From Candidatus Anderseniibacteriota bacterium (GTDB lineage Bacteria; Patescibacteriota; Andersenbacteria; UBA10190): a stretch of 60,583 bases of DNA. The DNA is taken from positions 1-60,583 of the forward strand of contig JBBDOX010000014.1 of the NCBI GenBank assembly GCA_040876835.1, given 5' to 3'. Position 1 is the stretch's first letter, and the number at the start of each line of letters is the position of its first letter. Made by a program: the position numbers and the translations under genes. Below, piece after piece: positions 144 to 54,515 of the stretch. The notes below the pieces were generated by a model. It had not been told where the DNA came from and made no database searches. It saw nothing but the letters and a program-made list of their open reading frames with translations.

Positions 144-935
144 ATGGAATTTGTTAAGGAATTAAAGAAGCTGGGATTGAAGGATAAGGAAGCTGCTGTG
201 TATTTAGCGTGTTTAGAATTAGGCCCTTCCCCGGTTCAGCAGGTGTCCAGGAAGGCGCGGGTCGTGAGAGCAACGACATATGTGATACTTGAATCCCTCA
301 TGCAGATGGGGCTAGTTACGAAGTTTAAAGAGGGTAAGAAAACCCTCTTTTCTGCCGAACCACCCAGACAGTTGACGCGTCTTCTTGAGAAGCAGAAAAA
401 AGAGCTCGAAGAGAAGGAATACCAGCTGGATGAGGTGCTACCGGAACTACAGGTAATTATGAAAACGGCAGGTGACCGGCCCTCGGTGCGGTATTTTGAA
501 GGTAAGGAGGGTCTTCATGCTATTCGACAGGAGATTGTGATGTATTCTCAAGCTGGAGATACGGTATATAATTTCACGCCCTATGATCATTTGTTAGCTA
601 TATTTCCGGAAGATGAACCGGTGTATTTGCGTCAGCGTGTTGCGAAAGGCGTTAATTCAAAAACTTTAATTACGACTAAATCCGAAAAACTTAAACAAGA
701 AATGTTTACTGAGGCTAAACACGAAAGAAGCGAACGCCGCTTTATTTCGCCAGAAATGTTCCCAAGTACAAGTGGAATGACGATTTACAGGAACCGCATT
801 GCTATCGGAACGTTTAGCGGAAAGTTGATGGGAGTAGTGATCGAAAGTGATCCCATGTCAGACATGATGAAGAGGATGTTTGAGATTGCCTGGATCGGGG
901 CAGGAATTTTAGAAGACAACAAAGGAAAAAATTAG
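144..935 (+). CDS. TrmB-family transcriptional regulator
   Basis: 263-aa ORF; N-terminal winged-helix segment LKKLGLKDKEAAVYLACLELGPSPVQQVSRKARVVRATTYVILESLMQMGLV is typical of the TrmB family. Confidence 0.75.
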   Translation: MEFVKELKKLGLKDKEAAVYLACLELGPSPVQQVSRKARVVRATTYVILESLMQMGLVTKFKEGKKTLFSAEPPRQLTRLLEKQKKELEEKEYQLDEVLPELQVIMKTAGDRPSVRYFEGKEGLHAIRQEIVMYSQAGDTVYNFTPYDHLLAIFPEDEPVYLRQRVAKGVNSKTLITTKSEKLKQEMFTEAKHERSERRFISPEMFPSTSGMTIYRNRIAIGTFSGKLMGVVIESDPMSDMMKRMFEIAWIGAGILEDNKGKN

Positions 936-942
936 AGTTATC

Positions 943-971
943 TTGACTTTTTGAGCGTAAGTACTTAAAGT
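943..971 (+). promoter_or_regulatory. sigma70-type promoter driving the non-coding locus
   Basis: TTGACT(943-948)-17 nt-TAAAGT(966-971), starting 8 nt after the TrmB-gene stop codon. Confidence 0.5.
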
Positions 972-977
972 GATGTT

Positions 978-1492
978 TGCACGTGGGGGTCACGTGTGGC
1001 GTAAGCCTTCAGTTTTGACCTCTTGAAAAGGAGGTGTGCAATGGGGCTCGATCCCATGCGGAGCTGAAGCTGTCCACCTGGGTTTGGTTCCGGAAGGAAT
1101 CGGTCATGCCGATCAGGAAGTTATGCGGCAAAGGTGCGGCCGACGCCCTGACTCATTAAGTGGATAGTTCGCTATCCGATGAGAAGGGGCTCGGCCAAAC
1201 CGCACCACTTGACCTGTCCAGGCGCAATCGTTCATTGATCTTTGAAACAAAAGGGTACAATTGATACCCAGGTGGGCAGCGAAAGCTGTCCTGAGCCCGC
1301 AAGCGCGTCTCGCTTCACGACTCTTCATCTAAGGTCGACCCACGAGGTCAGACCGCCCTTTATCGGGAAGCGTGAACGAGCTTCGGGCTCAAATACACTC
1401 TCCGTCTTACGACGGACCTTAAGGCCTGCTACGCAGAGCGCAATTTGATCACCGGATCACTTTGTATGCTCACGTACAGGCCTTACTTCTTT
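978..1492 (+). ncRNA. Unclassified structured RNA candidate, about 0.5 kb
   Basis: No credible ORF. Hairpins at 980-996, GUAA-capped 998-1007 and 1041-1057. A 74-nt hairpin at 1133-1206 is capped by UUCG (1168-1171). A GAAA-capped stem lies at 1275-1290. Further hairpins at 1378-1390 (UUCGG loop) and 1402-1415. A 14-bp long-range complement joins 1070-1083 to 1266-1279. Bounded by a promoter and a terminator. Confidence 0.55.
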
Positions 1493-1495
1493 TTT
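1420..1495 (+). terminator. Intrinsic terminator of the non-coding locus
   Basis: 13-bp stem taaggcctgctacg(1420-1433)/cgtacaggcctta(1473-1485) followed by cttctttttt (1486-1495). Confidence 0.55.
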
Positions 1496-1522
1496 GACAT
1501 TTCTGTTCGTGTTCAATACTGT
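1494..1522 (+). promoter_or_regulatory. Possible pth promoter
   Basis: TTGACA(1494-1499)-17 nt-TACTGT(1517-1522); the -10 box is weak. Confidence 0.3.
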
Positions 1523-1638
1523 TAAAGGTCCTTCGGGTATCTTCTGTATGCCCCCGCCCGTCTTAAGGTTACGAGCTTGGAGCCAACCCCTCCTATGCTT
1601 CAAGCTTTCACTGACCTAAAGTGGGTGGGGTTATGCAG

Positions 1639-1671
1639 AAGAAAGGCGGCTCCTACGAGAGCCGCTTTCTT
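1639..1671 (+). promoter_or_regulatory. Stable hairpin in the pth 5' leader, function unknown
   Basis: About 13-bp stem aagaaaggcggctc/gagccgctttctt with one bulge, ending 30 nt before the pth ATG; no U-run on either strand. Confidence 0.35.
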
Positions 1672-1700
1672 GTAGAAAGAATCACGTCTATCATGCAGAT

Positions 1701-2264
1701 ATGAATAAAGTTGTATTTGTAGGCTTGGGAAATCCCGGTAAAAAGTTTGAGCACACTCGCCACAACGTTGGCATTGATATTCTGCGTGTGTGGGTGGAGA
1801 TGATGAAAGGGCGAGGCGCGACTGTAAGTAACTGGAAAGAAGAACAAGCATTCAATGCTGAGATTGCAGAAGTTGCTCTACCTCCTGTTCAAGTTGAGTG
1901 TATATTCCCCCTGACCTTTATGAATGATGCCGGACGGGCCGTAGGAGCACATGCCGCATTTTACAACATCACTCCTCAGAATATACTGATCATTCATGAC
2001 GATCTGGAACTGCCTTTGGGAGAAGTGAGTATTAAGGAAGAGGGGAGTGCCCATGGACACAACGGCGTGCGTTCTATTCACCAACAACTTAGCACGGATA
2101 AGATACGTCGATTACGAATTGGCATTGGGCGTCCTCTAGCTCAGGTGCCCGTTGAGGAGTACGTGCTTCAGCAATTCACTACTGAAGAGCAGCCGGGCAT
2201 TACACAAAGTATTCATCAGGCAGCCTTGCTCCTGGAGGAGCAAGCAAAGATACTAGCCCTTTAG
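1701..2264 (+). CDS. pth: Peptidyl-tRNA hydrolase
   Basis: VFVGLGNPGKKFEHTRHNVG N-terminal signature; 187 aa. Confidence 0.9.
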   Translation: MNKVVFVGLGNPGKKFEHTRHNVGIDILRVWVEMMKGRGATVSNWKEEQAFNAEIAEVALPPVQVECIFPLTFMNDAGRAVGAHAAFYNITPQNILIIHDDLELPLGEVSIKEEGSAHGHNGVRSIHQQLSTDKIRRLRIGIGRPLAQVPVEEYVLQQFTTEEQPGITQSIHQAALLLEEQAKILAL

Positions 2265-3943: not shown

Positions 3944-4573
3944 ATGACTCCTGATGAAACACATAACCCCTCTGCCGGAAAGGCGATCGGACGATTCTTT
4001 TGGGAACTAATTAAGGCCTTTTTAATCGCGGTAGTTATCATTGTTCCTATCCGGTATTTCCTAGTGCAGCCGTTTTTTGTGCGAGGAGCATCGATGGAGC
4101 CGAACTTTGAAGACGGGGAGTATTTGATCATTGATCAGCTATCCTATCGTTTTCGAGAACCGCGTCGGGGAGAAGTGGTAGTGTTCCGGTATCCACGACA
4201 GCCCTCTCAGTTTTTTATTAAGAGAATTATTGGTTTGCCCGGAGAGCGGGTGCAAATCTCTGATGGCACGGTTGTGATTTACAATGACAGGCATCAACAG
4301 GGAGTGGTGCTCGATGAATCAACATATCTGGAGCCCACTGTACGGACAGGTGGTCAGGTAGATCTTCAGTTAGGCACTGAGGAATATTTTGTTCTGGGTG
4401 ATAATCGCCCGGCAAGTTCCGATTCTCGCTCCTGGGGAGAGCTAGGTGCAGACAGCATTGTTGGTCGCACCTGGATCCGGGCCTACCCGTTTGATCAATT
4501 CGACATTTTTCAGGTTGATGTGCCTGGATTTATAGCTATTCCACAGTCCAATGTTCAAGAAGGAGTGCTCTAG
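3944..4573 (+). CDS. lepB: Signal peptidase I
   Basis: GASMEPN serine box, FIKRIIGLPGE lysine box, VLGDNRPASSDSR. Confidence 0.9.
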   Translation: MTPDETHNPSAGKAIGRFFWELIKAFLIAVVIIVPIRYFLVQPFFVRGASMEPNFEDGEYLIIDQLSYRFREPRRGEVVVFRYPRQPSQFFIKRIIGLPGERVQISDGTVVIYNDRHQQGVVLDESTYLEPTVRTGGQVDLQLGTEEYFVLGDNRPASSDSRSWGELGADSIVGRTWIRAYPFDQFDIFQVDVPGFIAIPQSNVQEGVL

Positions 4574-6765: not shown

Positions 6766-6901
6766 AGCATACAAGCATCCTTGACCACACAGGCGAGGTG
6801 TGGCAAGTTATTGACTAGGTACTGGGACGTGGTTCTTCTGGGGTCTGAGATGTTTAGCAGGTACGCCGCAGTATCGGATTATCCGTCATTTATTTTCAAA
6901 G

Positions 6902-6945
6902 GGAGGTGATTTTGGTTTGTTCCTCTTTTTAAAGAGGAAAAACCA
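6902..6945 (+). promoter_or_regulatory. rpsU translation-initiation element: a perfect 9-nt SD followed by a 13-bp hairpin that bridges it to the AUG
   Basis: GGAGGTGAT (6902-6910) is the exact complement of the canonical 16S 3' end. Hairpin at 6913-6945. Six nt then lead to ATG 6952. Confidence 0.4.
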
Positions 6946-6951
6946 CACAAT

Positions 6952-7203
6952 ATGGTAGAAGTACGTAAGCGCGATAACGAAACGAGCGACAGTCTCATTC
7001 GTCGTTTTTCACGTAAGGTTCAGCAAAGCGGAGTGTTGCTGCAGGCTCGTAAGGTGCAGTACTACCAACGCAAAAAGAGCAAGCGAAAAGTTCGCGAAGA
7101 AGCGCAGCGCCGCGGCGAGCTTCAGGCAGAACGGGATCGCTTGATTAAGCTTGGTGAAATTGATGAATTCACATATCCTGGTCGCCCACCTAAGCGACGC
7201 TAA
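6952..7203 (+). CDS. rpsU: 30S ribosomal protein bS21
   Basis: VEVRKRDNETSDSLIRRFSRKVQQSGVL...RKKSKRK. Confidence 0.9.
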   Translation: MVEVRKRDNETSDSLIRRFSRKVQQSGVLLQARKVQYYQRKKSKRKVREEAQRRGELQAERDRLIKLGEIDEFTYPGRPPKRR

Positions 7204-53408: not shown

Positions 53409-53996
53409 CTAGATTCTATTCCATGCGACGTAGGAGGGAATTGCTCCTCCCAACTCCCACGTCTGGAAGATTTTCATTCCGCGGCACCAAAGCTGCGTGG
53501 AGTTAGGACAGCACTCGATGCCACGTGTTTCCACGTGGACCACAGTGCCACCGAGCTTTTCCCATGCCCAATGGACACGGGGCACGTGATCGGTATAGCC
53601 AACTAAGCTAGCTTCCGTACCCCACTCGTGTTGAACGCAGACCTCCTTAGCGTGCTTAAGCGAATCTGCCGAGTGGTAGTGGATTCCCTCCACTTTCTCA
53701 TTCGGCCCAGGTAGATACACCACCTGATCCATGTTCACGGTCCCGAGATCGCGGATCGCTTCGTACACTTCCTTCTGAGCAATGATTGGCTTGCCCGTTG
53801 CCTGATGCAACTCAGCAGCTGCACGAGCAATCTGTTTGTTACTCCTGCCCGGCTCTCCGTTGGGGCCGATGCCAAACGTAAGAGCGATGATCACATCAGC
53901 CCTCTTTGCCTTATACAGGCTGTACGGAGGTGTATAGATGTACCAGCGCCACCAGTACTGTGGCACAAGAACAAGCCTATGCGGTTGAAAGGACAT
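53409..53996 (-). CDS. Hypothetical protein, DUF218/YdcF-like pattern; G/C-ending codons
   Basis: GGAGGAG SD (53999-54005). ADVIIALTFG...ARAAAELHQATGKPIIAQ ... LVGYTDHVPRVHWAWEKLG resembles DUF218; this is a low-confidence family call. Confidence 0.5.
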   Translation of the reverse strand: MSFQPHRLVLVPQYWWRWYIYTPPYSLYKAKRADVIIALTFGIGPNGEPGRSNKQIARAAAELHQATGKPIIAQKEVYEAIRDLGTVNMDQVVYLPGPNEKVEGIHYHSADSLKHAKEVCVQHEWGTEASLVGYTDHVPRVHWAWEKLGGTVVHVETRGIECCPNSTQLWCRGMKIFQTWELGGAIPSYVAWNRI

Positions 53997-54060
53997 GTCT
54001 CCTCCATTATTCTGGGGTTGTTGAAACTTTAGAGACTTTGCACACCTTACATAGGAATCC

Positions 54061-54094: not shown

Positions 54095-54513
54095 GCAAGA
54101 TAGGTGAACGATTGCTCTGCGTGAATAGCGTGGAGAGGAAAGTCCGGACACCTAGTTGTTTACAACTATCAAGGGTGGCAGATAACGTCTGCCGGGCGTA
54201 AGCCTAGGGACTGGAAAGGTGCTTTTAGAAGGATACTCTTCACGTGAATATCTTTCTTTAAAATCCGAGTACGGCGAAGAGCGCAACAGAAACATACCGC
54301 CTGCATTTTGCAGGTAAGGATGAAATCGTGAGGTAAGAGCTCACGCGGGCGCATGGAAACATGCGCGCGGGGCAAACCCCACCCGGTGCAACTCCAAGCA
54401 GTGCTTGTCTTATTAAGACGGGCCGGTAGGAGGCAATGAGATGCGTAGCGATGCGTATCATAAGATAGATGATCGTTTTCAAAGACAGAATCCGGCTTAC
54501 AGCTTATCTTGTA
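54095..54513 (+). ncRNA. rnpB: RNase P RNA, bacterial type A
   Basis: GAGGAAAGTCCGGAC, GCAACAGAAACATACCGCC, GGTAAGAGCTCAC, GCAAACCCCACCCGGTGCAA, ACAGAATCCGGCTTA. P1 pairing caagatagg / cttatcttg. Confidence 0.9.
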
Positions 54514-54515
54514 CC

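What the first reader, a model, noticed from the sequence alone, without database searches (positions are those of the whole stretch)
943..1495. Free-standing ~0.5-kb highly structured non-coding locus with its own promoter and terminator, not assignable to a known RNA class
Between the TrmB-family gene and pth lies about 750 nt with no credible ORF.

Transcription signals:
- A near-consensus promoter (TTGACT-N17-TAAAGT, 943-971) starts 8 nt after the upstream stop codon.
- A long-stem intrinsic terminator (1420-1485 plus a U-run) closes the unit.

Structural elements, including hairpins capped by classic stable loops:
- GUAA loop (998-1007).
- UUCG loop on a 74-nt composite hairpin (1133-1206).
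- GAAA loop (1275-1290).
- UUCGG loop (1378-1390), plus a further hairpin at 1402-1415.
- A 14-bp long-range pairing joins 1070-1083 to 1266-1279.

Segment 1266-1280 can pair either with that distal partner or with the local GAAA hairpin. The motif gctgtcc occurs at both 1069-1075 and 1285-1291. This gives mutually exclusive folds, which looks switch-like.

RNase P RNA is elsewhere in the window. I found no tmRNA ends or tag, no canonical SRP domain IV, no T-box or B12-box, and no group II domain V.
Basis: seen in the sequence. Interest (0 to 1): 0.72.

Follow-up and report, generated by a model that had tools for sequence, protein, structure and literature searches.

The report
Hyper-structured RNA with masked mini-ORF
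A ~520-base, very tightly folded RNA gene sits between the same two genes across a class of ultra-small bacteria; its only conserved part is a hidden, very strong ribosome-binding site plus a 3-9 codon reading frame, in a genome that otherwise hardly uses such sites, so it more likely engages ribosomes than binds a ligand.

Summary
Window 943-1495 has no credible ORF, a promoter-like site, a strong intrinsic terminator and exceptional predicted structure (z about -8 to -9; other gaps +2.3 to -3.6). It has no Rfam, tRNA or tmRNA match.

The same TrmB-to-pth spacer occurs in 26 non-redundant Andersenbacteria-type (Patescibacteria) contigs. It is not one RNA:
- **Unit 1** is the finding.
- **Unit 3** (window 1525-1658) lies downstream with its own conserved promoter. 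It is a covariation-supported hairpin RNA with an invariant exposed CCCCUCC loop.

The body of unit 1 cannot be aligned between relatives, yet it is hyper-structured in all 14 relatives tested.
- a purine-only extended Shine-Dalgarno tract, usually base-paired;
- an AUG-GG start;
- a frame-specific stop, giving a mini-ORF of 2-11 codons (exactly 3 in 15 of 26 loci).

This genome is otherwise nearly SD-free. The two strongest anti-SD-binding sites in 60 kb are the rpsU (bS21) leader and this mini-ORF.

Best reading (confidence about 0.4): an autonomous riboregulator that engages ribosomes through the anti-SD sequence. A ligand riboswitch is not supported. Rivals are a pth leader or attenuator, a protein-binding SD-ASD mimic, and a partner of the CCUCC-loop RNA. 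Function is untested.

The parts
943..971 (+). Promoter-like site of unit 1 (TTGACT-N17-TAAAGT). The predicted transcription start is near 978.
   Evidence: Reported by the consensus scan. Comparable -35/-10 pairs, or -10 boxes, lie within ~10-160 nt of the TrmB stop codon in relatives. Predicted only.
978..1495 (+). Unit 1, the RNA of the finding: a predicted ~517-nt transcript.
   Evidence: z is -9.05 / -8.0 on the + strand against -6.2 / -6.0 on the - strand. There is no Rfam hit. Equivalent units in 14 relatives give z of -3.3 to -10.3, with a lower MFE on the + strand in 13 of 14.
1017..1035 (+). SD-masking hairpin GACCUCUU-gaaa-AGGAGGU, an intramolecular anti-SD-like / SD duplex.
   Evidence: Folds at -9.3 kcal/mol, z -3.3. 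The SD pairing probability is 0.99 here and averages 0.80 over 26 loci.
1025..1040 (+). Extended Shine-Dalgarno tract GAAAAGGAGGUGUGCA (core GGAGG at 1030-1034).
   Evidence: It is the second strongest site in the whole 60.6-kb window, on both strands, for pairing with a canonical 16S 3' tail (-18.0 kcal/mol). A purine-only tract is conserved at -14 to -9 in 26 loci.
1041..1067 (+). Mini-ORF AUG GGG CUC GAU CCC AUG CGG AGC UGA (MGLDPMRS*). Bases 1041-1057 also form the hairpin AUGGGG/CCCAU.
   Evidence: Conserved SD, AUG-GG and a frame-specific stop occur in 26 of 26 loci. The hairpin folds at -9.1 kcal/mol.
1069..1083 (+). 5' strand of the 15-bp long-range clamp. It begins 2 nt after the mini-ORF stop codon.
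   Evidence: Paired with 1266-1280 in the MFE and centroid. The clamp melts when a ribosome footprint is imposed at the stop codon. It is window-specific and cannot be tested by covariation.
1133..1206 (+). 74-nt composite hairpin with a UUCG loop.
   Evidence: Folds at -42 kcal/mol, z -6.7.
1266..1291 (+). 3' strand of the clamp (1266-1280) overlapping the alternative GAAA hairpin (1274-1291).
   Evidence: -12.8 kcal/mol, z -5.0.
1292..1416 (+). 3' domain: a long irregular helix 1292-1391 (UUCGG loop at 1378-1390) plus the hairpin 1402-1415.
   Evidence: MFE folds. The domain is unchanged by the ribosome-footprint constraints.
1420..1495 (+). Intrinsic terminator of unit 1: a 66-nt hairpin followed by ACUUCUUUUUU.
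   Evidence: Folds at -33.1 kcal/mol, z -7.1. A hairpin plus T-run ends unit 1 in the relatives. It is unaffected by ribosome constraints in 25 of 26 loci.
1494..1522 (+). Promoter-like site of unit 3 (TTGACA-N17-TACTGT), directly after the unit-1 T-run.
   Evidence: The same arrangement is seen in more than 20 loci.
1525..1658 (+). Unit 3, a conserved RNA outside the finding's coordinates. It has an 18-bp basal stem and an apical hairpin with the loop CAACCCCUCCUAU (1584-1596).
   Evidence: Covariance model R1 finds one copy per locus in 24 loci and none elsewhere in the window. 86% of cells are paired against 45-51% for slid controls, there are 118 double-change cells against 36 in shuffles, and 0 of 500 shuffles reach the observed values. 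z is -5.1 (+) against -1.0 (-).
1646..1673 (.). Terminator-like hairpin plus UUUCUUGU between unit 3 and the pth AUG (1701). No promoter-like site follows it.
   Evidence: The scanner calls it on the - strand, and the hairpin is symmetric.

Best explanation
The finding is the first of two tandem, independently transcribed RNA genes that Andersenbacteria-type Patescibacteria keep between a TrmB-family gene and pth. It is an autonomous ~520-nt RNA.

**Selected core.** The core is a translation-initiation-like module: an extended Shine-Dalgarno tract, normally locked in a duplex with an anti-SD-like strand, then AUG-GG and a stop codon after 2-11 codons. The rest is a rapidly evolving body of very stable helices ending in a strong intrinsic terminator.

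**Proposed mechanism.**
1. A 30S or 70S ribosome with an available anti-SD tail binds the unmasked SD. The same signal is used by rpsU in SD-less lineages.
2. The ribosome reads the mini-ORF and stops at once.
3. While bound, it opens the helices that enclose the module. In this window that is the 15-bp clamp 1069-1083/1266-1280, which lets the GAAA hairpin form.

The RNA would therefore report or titrate anti-SD-competent ribosomes. Its likely outputs are its own conformation and stability, and possibly the neighbouring CCUCC-loop RNA and pth.

**Shown.** Conservation of the SD, AUG and frame-specific stop; SD masking; hyper-structure; SD-poor genome context; rank of the SD; fold change under a footprint constraint.

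**Inferred.** That ribosomes bind, that the mini-ORF is translated, and any downstream effect.
For: **Synteny.** The spacer is syntenic and ORF-free in 26 non-redundant loci.

**Conserved core.**
- There is no C and at most one T at positions -14 to -9. UG stands at -4/-3. The start is AUG in 25 of 26 loci (GUG in one), and G at +4/+5 in 19 and 22 of 26.
- A profile of this 38-nt core finds only these sites as its top hits in 813 kb.

**The reading frame matters.**
- The ORF is at most 11 codons in 26 of 26 loci (shuffles: mean 11.1, maximum 19).
- It has exactly 3 sense codons in 15 of 26 (shuffles: mean 1.2, maximum 7).
- The other two frames give 0 loci with exactly 3 codons.
- All three stop codons are used, and codon 3 varies.

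**The SD is masked.** Its pairing probability averages 0.80, and opening the ribosome-binding site costs 9-26 kcal/mol. The 13 nt after the stop codon are about 77% paired, mostly to the SD side.

**The genome is nearly SD-free.**
- Only 2 of 65 ORFs have a GGAGG-type 5-mer near an early ATG.
- GGAGG-N3-10-ATG occurs at chance level.
- In an unbiased scan, the strongest anti-SD partners in 60.6 kb are the rpsU leader (-19.5 kcal/mol) and this SD (-18.0 kcal/mol).
- The strong rpsU SD is conserved and ranks first in 5 distinct Andersenbacteria rpsU loci.

**Precedents.**
- In SD-blind Bacteroidia, extended SDs are read by bS21-less ribosomes (PMC9976891, PMC7797042).
- A translated 3-codon uORF embedded in a stem senses ribosome status in the vmlR leader (PMC9226507).

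**Fold change.** A footprint at the stop codon switches the window's fold from the clamp to the GAAA hairpin.

**Autonomy.** Unit 1 ends in a strong terminator followed by a conserved promoter. It persists where pth is inverted and sits behind lytR.
Against: - There are no expression, ribosome-binding or translation data.
- The 16S 3' tail was assumed to be canonical, because the 16S gene is not in the window.
- The SD is strongly masked, which argues against easy ribosome access.
- The SD is weak in some relatives (-8.0 to -10.7 kcal/mol in L107, L082, L102 and L106). Only 13 of 26 loci reach -13 kcal/mol.
- The AUG is no less paired than average (0.53 against 0.63 overall).
- GGAGG paired with CCUCC-like strands could instead be a purely structural or protein-binding duplex.
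- The clamp-to-hairpin switch is seen in one sequence only and cannot be tested by covariation.
- No output of the proposed sensor has been identified.
- Promoters are consensus matches only. Co-transcription with the TrmB gene, with unit 1 as its 3' UTR, is not excluded.
- The loci are phylogenetically related, so counts over loci overstate independence.
Confidence: 0.4

Rival explanations
1. Unit 1 is a cis-acting leader or attenuator of pth. On this view the whole spacer is a long regulatory 5' region, and the mini-ORF is a leader peptide of the vmlR/lmo0919 type. Ribosomes stalled on it, for example by peptidyl-transferase inhibitors or when peptidyl-tRNA accumulates, would promote read-through of the unit-1 terminator into unit 3 and pth.
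For: - pth follows the RNA cluster in every locus.
- In L082 the pth start lies at most 30 nt after the unit-1 T-run, with no unit 3 and no room for a promoter.
- In the window no promoter-like site lies between unit 3 and pth. In L081, L084, L085 and L090 unit 3 ends about 20 nt before the pth AUG.
- Three-codon uORFs with variable codons, embedded in a stem and followed by an intrinsic terminator, are the hallmark of the vmlR attenuator (PMC9226507).
- From established knowledge: Pth clears the peptidyl-tRNA released by abortive translation of very short ORFs and by macrolide or lincosamide action.
Against: - A conserved promoter directly follows the unit-1 terminator in more than 20 loci.
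- The terminator hairpin is unaffected by ribosome-footprint constraints in 25 of 26 loci, so no competing antiterminator is predicted.
- The stop codon and the terminator are 120-350 nt apart.
- Unit 1 is retained with all its features in 4 lineages where pth is inverted and placed behind lytR, so that no ORF lies downstream on the same strand.
- Unit 3 is absent from 73 pth loci of other phyla.
Confidence: 0.2
2. Unit 1 is a protein-binding mimic and is not translated. The SD/anti-SD-like duplex of unit 1 and the CCCCUCC loop of unit 3 would mimic the mRNA-16S platform helix and the 16S 3' tail. They would bind a platform protein such as bS21, as the P6 SD-ASD mimic of OLE RNA does.
For: - An SD paired to an anti-SD-like strand is the most consistent structural feature of unit 1.
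- Unit 3 shows an invariant, predicted-unpaired CCCCUCC. CCUCC motifs are 74% unpaired, against 33% overall.
- rpsU is present and carries the strongest SD of the contig.
- OLE RNA binds bS21 at an SD-ASD duplex mimic (PMC12054373).
Against: - A duplex mimic explains neither the invariant start codon at a fixed distance nor the frame-specific stop codon with a variable third codon.
- The partner strand lies upstream of the SD in about 40% of loci and downstream in about 60%, so there is no fixed architecture.
- There is no similarity to OLE in Rfam.
- Protein binding cannot be tested with these tools.
Confidence: 0.12
3. The locus is an RNA-RNA pair. Unit 3 would be a trans-acting sRNA whose C-rich apical loop pairs with the GGAGG tract of unit 1, making unit 1 its target or sponge. 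In an SD-free genome that tract would be a specific address rather than a general ribosome-binding site.
For: - The two units are adjacent in 24 of 26 loci.
- The CCCCUCC loop is exposed and the GGAGG tract is conserved.
- GGAGG upstream of start codons is rare in this lineage.
- From established knowledge: C-rich loops that pair with SD regions are the seeds of staphylococcal RNAIII and RsaE.
Against: - By inspection, complementarity does not extend beyond the 5-8 nt SD core, and there is no co-variation between loop and tract.
- The tract is itself sequestered.
- L082 and L098 keep unit 1 without a unit 3 in the spacer.
- The idea does not explain the AUG and the stop codon.
Confidence: 0.1
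4. Unit 1 is a CsrA/RsmA-type sponge. Its GGA motifs, including GGAUG in a hairpin loop downstream of the mini-ORF, would sequester a CsrA-like protein.
For: - GGAUG lies 20-95 nt after the start codon in 18 of 27 loci. In L081, L084, L085 and L090 it sits in the loop of a hairpin whose stems differ in sequence.
- AGGA is enriched, with 139 occurrences against 80 expected.
- csrA is reported among the highly expressed genes of groundwater ultra-small prokaryotes (PMC9938205).
Against: - GGA motifs are mostly base-paired (24% unpaired against 33% overall).
- Their density is about 1 per 49 nt, far below CsrB or RsmZ.
- The window itself has no GGAUG in that position.
- No csrA was found in the 813 kb in hand, which is uninformative for whole genomes.
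Confidence: 0.03
5. The region is a non-functional spacer: a decayed gene, or a stack of terminators and insulators whose structure is incidental.
For: - The body sequence evolves too fast to align.
- Unit number and spacer length vary from 352 to 1146 nt.
Against: - No protein-level signal is found in any frame.
- The core motif, the frame-specific stop and the extreme z-scores are conserved in every locus.
- G+C is higher than in the flanks.
- Energies are strand-asymmetric.
Confidence: 0.05

Closest known systems
Three-codon uORF sensors in ribosome-dependent attenuators (B. subtilis vmlR uORF(MIN); Listeria lmo0919 leader)
   Same: - A strong SD and a 3-codon ORF whose codon identity varies between relatives (MIN, MDN, MDK and MRK there; MGV, MGG, MGN, MGK and others here).
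- The ORF is embedded in a stem-loop.
- It is followed by further hairpins and an intrinsic terminator (PMC9226507).
   Different: - Here no regulated ORF follows in the same unit. A conserved promoter and a second RNA intervene.
- No antiterminator competing with the terminator is predicted.
- The element is 300-520 nt long, against about 220 nt.
- It persists where no downstream gene exists on the same strand.
Extended-SD autoregulation of rpsU by bS21-less, free-ASD ribosomes in SD-blind Bacteroidia
   Same: - The genome is SD-poor.
- There is an exceptionally strong, extended SD (-18 kcal/mol in the window, where < -13 is the published hallmark).
- rpsU of the same genome carries the strongest SD, conserved in 5 relatives (PMC9976891, PMC7797042, PMC13000453).
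   Different: - The SD here heads a 3-9 codon ORF in a non-coding RNA, not a ribosomal protein gene.
- It is masked by structure.
- The lineage is Patescibacteria, and sequestration of the anti-SD tail by bS21, bS18 and bS6 has not been examined there.
- The SD is weak in part of the relatives.
OLE RNA P6 SD-ASD duplex mimic that binds bS21
   Same: Both are large (~0.5-0.6 kb), highly structured non-coding RNAs that contain an intramolecular duplex between an SD-like and an anti-SD-like strand (PMC12054373).
   Different: - There is no sequence or structure similarity to OLE (no Rfam hit).
- The OLE body is highly conserved, whereas this one is not.
- OLE has no start codon or mini-ORF after its SD-like strand.
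Phage lambda bar minigenes and Pth
   Same: Both have a strong SD followed by a 2-3 codon ORF, and both are linked to peptidyl-tRNA hydrolase, here by conserved adjacency. The bar biology is from established knowledge, not from a tool.
   Different: - bar minigenes are known as toxic elements in Pth-limited E. coli, not as chromosomal regulators.
- Here the SD is masked, and no toxicity or tRNA sequestration has been tested.
C-rich-loop regulatory RNAs of Firmicutes (RNAIII hairpins, RsaE/RoxS); this comparison applies to unit 3
   Same: Both show an exposed C-rich (CCCCUCC) hairpin loop able to pair with SD-type purine tracts, in a stand-alone gene with its own promoter and terminator.
   Different: - There is no homology (no Rfam hit).
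- The host genome hardly uses SDs, so the target range would be very narrow.
- In many loci unit 3 doubles as the 5' leader of pth.

Membership tests
Any Rfam 15 family (including OLE, GOLLD, ROOL, HEARO, raiA, 6S, SRP, T-box, riboswitches, group II intron domains) | A covariance-model match at or near the family's gathering score. | tested here: not met
   - Window at gathering thresholds: only RNase P at 54096-54515.
- 850-1750 at E <= 10: three noise hits of 14-16 bits against gathering scores of 48-53.
- 20 homologous loci: no hits.
tmRNA (standard or permuted) | A tRNA-like acceptor/T-arm domain plus a tag reading frame. | tested here: not met
   ARAGORN finds only tRNA-Pro in the window. 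There is no Rfam tmRNA hit.
Riboswitch / ligand-sensing large RNA | A sequence- and structure-conserved aptamer core shared by homologues. | tested here: not met
   Outside the SD/mini-ORF core, unit 1 cannot be aligned between relatives by nhmmer or blastn. Conserved positions are confined to -14 to +11 around the AUG.
uORF-dependent transcription attenuator (vmlR / lmo0919 type) | A short translated uORF with its own SD, embedded in a stem. | tested here: met
   Translation itself was not tested.
uORF-dependent transcription attenuator (vmlR / lmo0919 type) | A ribosome on the uORF frees an antiterminator that competes with the terminator hairpin. | tested here: not met
   Terminator pairs are fully kept under initiation and termination footprints in 25 of 26 loci. 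This is a thermodynamic prediction only; co-transcriptional kinetics were not modelled.
uORF-dependent transcription attenuator (vmlR / lmo0919 type) | The terminator is followed directly by the regulated ORF, with no intervening promoter. | tested here: inconclusive
   Met in L082. Not met in the window and in more than 20 loci, where a conserved promoter and unit 3 follow. Impossible in the 4 loci with inverted pth.
Extended-SD targets of free-ASD ribosomes (rpsU type) | The genome generally lacks SD sequences. | tested here: met
   Only 2 of 65 ORFs carry a GGAGG-type 5-mer near an early ATG. GGAGG-N3-10-ATG occurs at chance level (16 against 14.8 expected). Only 8 of 67 such sites in 220 kb head ORFs of 60 codons or more.
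Extended-SD targets of free-ASD ribosomes (rpsU type) | Exceptionally strong SD-ASD pairing (below -13 kcal/mol), standing out in the genome. | tested here: inconclusive
   In the window the value is -18.0 kcal/mol, ranking second of about 121,000 16-mers behind the rpsU leader. Across relatives the median is -12.8 and 13 of 26 loci reach -13. The ASD sequence was assumed to be canonical.
Extended-SD targets of free-ASD ribosomes (rpsU type) | The anti-SD tail is sequestered by bS21, bS18 and bS6, and is freed in bS21-less ribosomes. | not testable with these tools
   bS21 is encoded at 6952-7203, but the pocket residues and the 16S tail were not examined.
CsrB/RsmZ-type protein sponge | Many GGA motifs exposed in hairpin loops or single strands. 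| tested here: not met
   GGA occurs about once per 49 nt and is 24% unpaired, against 33% overall.
Type I toxin-antitoxin (structured toxin mRNA plus sRNA) | A toxin ORF of roughly 18 or more mostly hydrophobic residues. | tested here: not met
   The conserved ORF is 2-11 codons, and no other ORF is conserved.
OLE-like SD-ASD mimic binding bS21 | An intramolecular SD/anti-SD duplex. | tested here: met
   (window 1017-1035, -9.3 kcal/mol). Binding of bS21 was not tested.
Lambda bar-type minigene | Expression is toxic when Pth is limiting, through accumulation of peptidyl-tRNA. | not testable with these tools
   Only the anatomy (strong SD plus 2-3 sense codons) and the adjacency to pth are shown.

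The most novel reading that the evidence does not exclude
Andersenbacteria, and perhaps other Patescibacteria, may run a Bacteroidia-like 'SD-blind' translation system. The few extended SDs would then be regulatory addresses for ribosomes with a freed anti-SD tail. Besides rpsU, the system would have a dedicated non-coding arm: a hyper-structured RNA whose masked SD plus 3-codon mini-ORF captures or reports such ribosomes, paired with a neighbouring RNA that displays an anti-SD mimic. Together they would be wired to peptidyl-tRNA hydrolase. That would be an RNA-based monitor of ribosome maturation and abortive translation, with no described counterpart.
Probability: 0.15. Interest if true: 0.85.

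Novelty: new variant of a known kind. Interest (0 to 1): 0.66.

Why it matters
If the reading is right, three things follow.
- A stand-alone non-coding RNA would have been selected for a ribosome-binding site and a three-codon frame rather than for an aptamer or a base-pairing seed. Tiny uORF sensors are so far known only as leaders of the genes they control.
- The 'rare strong SD in an SD-less genome' logic, shown experimentally only for rpsU in Bacteroidia, would extend to the Candidate Phyla Radiation and to an RNA target.
- It would open a testable link between specialised ribosomes, minigene-type translation and Pth.

Even on the conservative reading, the locus yields two new lineage-wide RNA families, one with solid covariation support. 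These organisms have almost no described regulatory RNAs.

Tried and rejected
- **Known RNA families.** Rfam at gathering and permissive thresholds, on the window and on 20 relatives, and ARAGORN, gave nothing.
- **Pseudogene.** tblastx against the other spacers, and tblastn with an ORF that a gene caller had placed in the L107 spacer, showed no protein-level conservation.
This was impossible. Neither nhmmer nor blastn aligns 975-1495 with any relative, and the closest TrmB is only 74% identical. MAFFT on six short-type unit-1 sequences aligns only the SD/AUG, a GGAUG loop and the terminator.
- **CsrA sponge.** The GGAUG loops resemble CsrA sites, but GGA motifs are sparse and mostly paired. 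No csrA was found in the sequences in hand.
- **Classical attenuation.** Ribosome-footprint constraints leave the terminator intact.
- **Unit 3 as a general pth leader.** It is absent from 73 pth loci of other phyla and is present where pth is inverted.
- **Extended unit-3 loop / unit-1 SD complementarity.** By inspection nothing extends beyond the SD core.
- **A longer ORF from the upstream out-of-frame AUG (AUGnnAUGG).** Its lengths are not conserved.
- **Literature.** Searches for a described Patescibacteria RNA of this kind, or for a pth leader, found nothing.
- **A covariance model for unit 1.** None was built, because the SD partner lies upstream in some loci and downstream in others.
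Full report
**1. Observation**

The region is as described. Window 936-1700 (765 nt) separates a TrmB-family gene (144-935; PF01978 plus a weak DUF7342 match) from pth (1701-2264; PF01195).

- No ORF exceeds 71 aa.
- The scanner reports TTGACT-N17-TAAAGT at 943-971.
- The hairpin 1420-1485 folds at -33.1 kcal/mol (z -7.1) and is followed by ACUUCUUUUUU.
- The GUAA, UUCG (74 nt; -42 kcal/mol, z -6.7), GAAA (-12.8 kcal/mol, z -5.0) and UUCGG hairpins, and the hairpin at 1402-1415, all appear in the MFE and centroid folds.
- The long-range helix is 15 bp: 1069-1083 with 1266-1280.
- The duplicated gctgtcc makes the two pairings of 1274-1280 mutually exclusive.

As a whole, 975-1495 folds with z = -9.05 on the + strand and -6.2 on the - strand. 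Other intergenic gaps of the same window give z of +2.3 to -3.6, and coding controls give about 0.

Rfam at gathering and at E <= 10, and ARAGORN, give nothing for the region. RNase P is at 54096-54515.

**2. Relatives**

TrmB and Pth homologues place the contig in Candidatus Andersenbacteria (Patescibacteria). The closest TrmB in 5.8 billion proteins is only 74% identical.

Genome, metagenome and contig look-ups gave 26 non-redundant loci with the same context: mfd(-) | TrmB(+) | an ORF-free spacer of 352-1146 nt | pth | lytR.

- pth is on the + strand in most loci.
- In four lineages (L078, L088, L092 and L003) it is inverted and sits directly behind lytR.
- None of 20 loci has an Rfam hit.
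- No frame of the window's spacer shows protein-level similarity to the other spacers in its first ~540 nt.

**3. The spacer is not one RNA**

Only the pth-proximal ~200 nt is similar at the nucleotide level. Reading the spacers shows tandem units, each consisting of a promoter-like site, a structured body, and a hairpin plus T-run.

The last unit ('unit 3', window 1525-1658) starts at a conserved TTGACA-N17-TAnnnT placed directly after the T-run of the preceding unit.

- A covariance model finds exactly one copy in 24 loci. It finds none elsewhere in the 60-kb window and none in 73 pth loci of other phyla.
- Its 18-bp basal stem and 8-bp apical stem are well supported. 86% of cells are paired against 45-51% when partners are slid. 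There are 118 double-change cells against 36 in shuffles. None of 500 shuffles reaches the observed values.
- The apical loop CAACCCCUCCUAU (1584-1596) has an invariant CCCCUCC.

Longer spacers carry one or two further units between unit 1 and unit 3. The window has none. Its unit 1 is simply long (~517 nt), like those of L001, L101, L106, L108 and L109.

**4. What is conserved in the finding itself (unit 1)**

Every locus has the following, about 100-265 nt after the TrmB stop codon:

- a purine-only tract at -14 to -9, with no C and at most one T;
- UG at -4/-3;
- a start codon (AUG in 25 of 26, GUG in one) followed by GG;
- an early in-frame stop.

The peptides are MGV, MGG, MGN, MGK, MGT, MGD, MSG, MVH and similar. 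In the window the ORF is AUG GGG CUC GAU CCC AUG CGG AGC UGA (1041-1067).

The ORF length statistics point to selection on the reading frame.

| Measure | Observed | Composition shuffles |
|---|---|---|
| ORF of 11 codons or fewer | 26 of 26 | mean 11.1, maximum 19 |
| Exactly 3 sense codons | 15 of 26 | mean 1.2, maximum 7 |

The other two frames give 0 loci with exactly 3 codons. All three stop codons occur, and codon 3 varies. This is the signature of selection on a reading frame, not on a sequence motif.

A profile of the 38-nt core retrieves only these sites as its top hits in 813 kb that contain hundreds of real gene starts.

The SD is usually sequestered.
- Its mean pairing probability is 0.80.
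- The partner lies upstream in about 40% of loci and downstream in about 60%.
- In the window the hairpin is GACCUCUU-gaaa-AGGAGGU, at -9.3 kcal/mol.
- The 13 nt after the stop codon are about 77% paired, mostly closing a stem around the module.

A GGAUG motif lies 20-95 nt downstream in 18 of 27 loci. In four related loci it sits in the loop of a hairpin whose stems differ in sequence. The window lacks it.

**5. The body**

Downstream of the module the sequences cannot be aligned. Yet all 14 tested homologues are hyper-structured (z of -3.3 to -10.3), with a lower MFE on the + strand in 13 of 14. What is conserved is 'very stable structure', not a particular fold. That argues against a ligand-binding core.

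**6. Genome context that changes the reading**

This lineage hardly uses Shine-Dalgarno sequences.

- Only 2 of 65 ORFs in the window have a GGAGG-type 5-mer near an early ATG.
- GGAGG-N3-10-ATG occurs at chance level (16 against 14.8).
- In 220 kb of window plus loci, 37 of 67 such sites head ORFs of 11 codons or fewer, and only 8 head ORFs of 60 codons or more, mostly internal ATGs.

I scanned every 16-mer of both strands against a canonical 16S 3' tail. This tail is an assumption, because the 16S gene is not in the window. The strongest site is the leader of rpsU (bS21; gene at 6952-7203, site at 6897-6912, -19.5 kcal/mol). The second strongest is the mini-ORF SD (1025-1040, -18.0 kcal/mol).

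The rpsU SD is conserved and ranks first in five distinct Andersenbacteria rpsU loci, at -15.2 to -19.5 kcal/mol.

This is the published hallmark of SD-blind Bacteroidia. There the anti-SD tail is buried by bS21, bS18 and bS6, and the one extended SD, on rpsU, is read by ribosomes that lack bS21 (PMC9976891, PMC7797042, PMC13000453).

Across relatives the mini-ORF SD is less uniform. The median is -12.8 kcal/mol, 13 of 26 loci reach -13, and a few lie near -8.

**7. Mechanism tests**

- With a ribosome footprint imposed at the stop codon of the window's mini-ORF, the 15-bp clamp opens and the GAAA hairpin forms. A footprint at the start codon opens the SD hairpin.
- The terminator hairpin is unchanged in 25 of 26 loci under either footprint. 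Opening the ribosome-binding site costs 9-26 kcal/mol. The vmlR-type antiterminator logic (PMC9226507) is therefore not predicted, at least thermodynamically.
- The CsrA-sponge idea fails on motif density and exposure.
- CCUCC motifs, by contrast, are mostly unpaired.

**8. Synthesis**

*Shown.*
- A lineage-wide, strand-specific, hyper-structured RNA locus that matches no known family.
- A conserved, masked, strong ribosome-binding site plus a mini-ORF with frame-specific stops.
- An adjacent, covariation-supported RNA with an exposed anti-SD-like loop.
- An SD-poor genome in which rpsU and this mini-ORF hold the two best anti-SD partners.
- Constant adjacency to pth.

*Inferred.*
- Ribosomes with an accessible anti-SD tail bind and briefly translate the mini-ORF and thereby remodel the RNA.
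- The RNA senses or titrates such ribosomes.

I put this at about 0.4.

The main rival, at about 0.2, is a cis-acting pth leader or attenuator. In its favour, pth starts at most 30 nt after the unit-1 T-run in L082, and unit 3 is contiguous with pth in many loci. Against it stand the conserved intervening promoter, the untouched terminators, and the loci with inverted pth.

A protein-binding SD-ASD mimic, as in OLE RNA P6 with bS21 (PMC12054373), and a unit 3/unit 1 RNA pair remain possible. They are not mutually exclusive with the best reading.

**9. Novelty and caveats**

I found no description of this locus in Rfam 15 or in the searched literature. In kind it is a bacterial regulatory RNA with a tiny ORF, which is known. 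The variant is new: it is stand-alone, the body is unconserved, and it sits in an SD-free genome.

Caveats:
- all sequences come from metagenome assemblies;
- promoters are consensus matches only;
- folds are thermodynamic predictions;
- the loci are phylogenetically related, so counts over loci overstate independence;
- the anti-SD sequence was assumed;
- no expression data were available.

Noticed in passing
window 1525-1658 (+); promoter-like site 1494-1522: A second, better conserved RNA ('unit 3') lies just outside the finding. It is a long hairpin with an invariant exposed CCCCUCC (anti-SD-like) loop. There is one copy per locus in 24 Andersenbacteria loci, the covariation support is strong, and it has no Rfam match. 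In many loci it is contiguous with the pth start.
   Followed up: yes
window 6897-6951 (+), upstream of rpsU (6952-7203): The bS21 gene has the strongest anti-SD-complementary site of the whole contig (AAAGGGAGGUGA, -19.5 kcal/mol). It is unpaired and is bridged to the AUG by the hairpin 6913-6947. A possible 6-codon UUG-started uORF lies at 6912-6932. An extended SD upstream of rpsU is conserved in 5 distinct Andersenbacteria loci (L112, L114, L115, L119 and the window).
   Followed up: partly
whole window and loci L001-L111: The lineage appears to be almost free of Shine-Dalgarno sequences. Gene starts are preceded by A/T-rich sequence without GGAGG, and GGAGG-N3-10-ATG occurs at chance level. 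This would make Andersenbacteria a candidate for Bacteroidia-like SD-independent initiation.
   Followed up: partly
window 1693-1704 (+): A tiny ORF, AUG CAG AUA UGA, ends in a UGA that overlaps the pth start codon (AUGA). It is in frame with a 27-codon GUG-started ORF (1621-1704) that begins in the 3' strand of the unit-3 basal stem. L001 has the analogous AUG AUG UAU AUA UGA at its pth start. This may be translational coupling; pth itself has no SD.
   Followed up: no
window 53409-54005 (-), next to RNase P RNA (54096-54515): This is the only long ORF in the window (195 aa, no Pfam family) that is directly preceded by a strong SD (GGAGGAGACAUG).
   Followed up: partly
5' ends of all units, e.g. 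window 1529-1545; L078, L091, L096 and L111 spacers: Each predicted transcription unit begins with a similar pyrimidine-rich box (G-Y-U-C-Y-U-U; in unit 1 often GGA-N2-5-UGUAC/UGUUC-UUU, within a small hairpin). Similar boxes also occur in the middle of the long unit-1 versions (window 1229-1244). This may mean the long versions are fused or processed units.
   Followed up: no
L107 spacer ~480-520 (locus about 4260-4300): One locus carries an extra unit with a unit-3-like loop (ACUCCCCUCCGAACGCU). The CCUCC-loop RNA can therefore be duplicated.
   Followed up: no
window 144-935 and all TrmB loci: The TrmB-family protein is unusually conserved for a transcription factor: 58-74% identity across the class, with 65 invariant positions in 28 sequences. 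It always lies directly upstream of unit 1 and on the same strand, with no terminator between them. It may control the RNA cluster or be co-transcribed with it.
   Followed up: no
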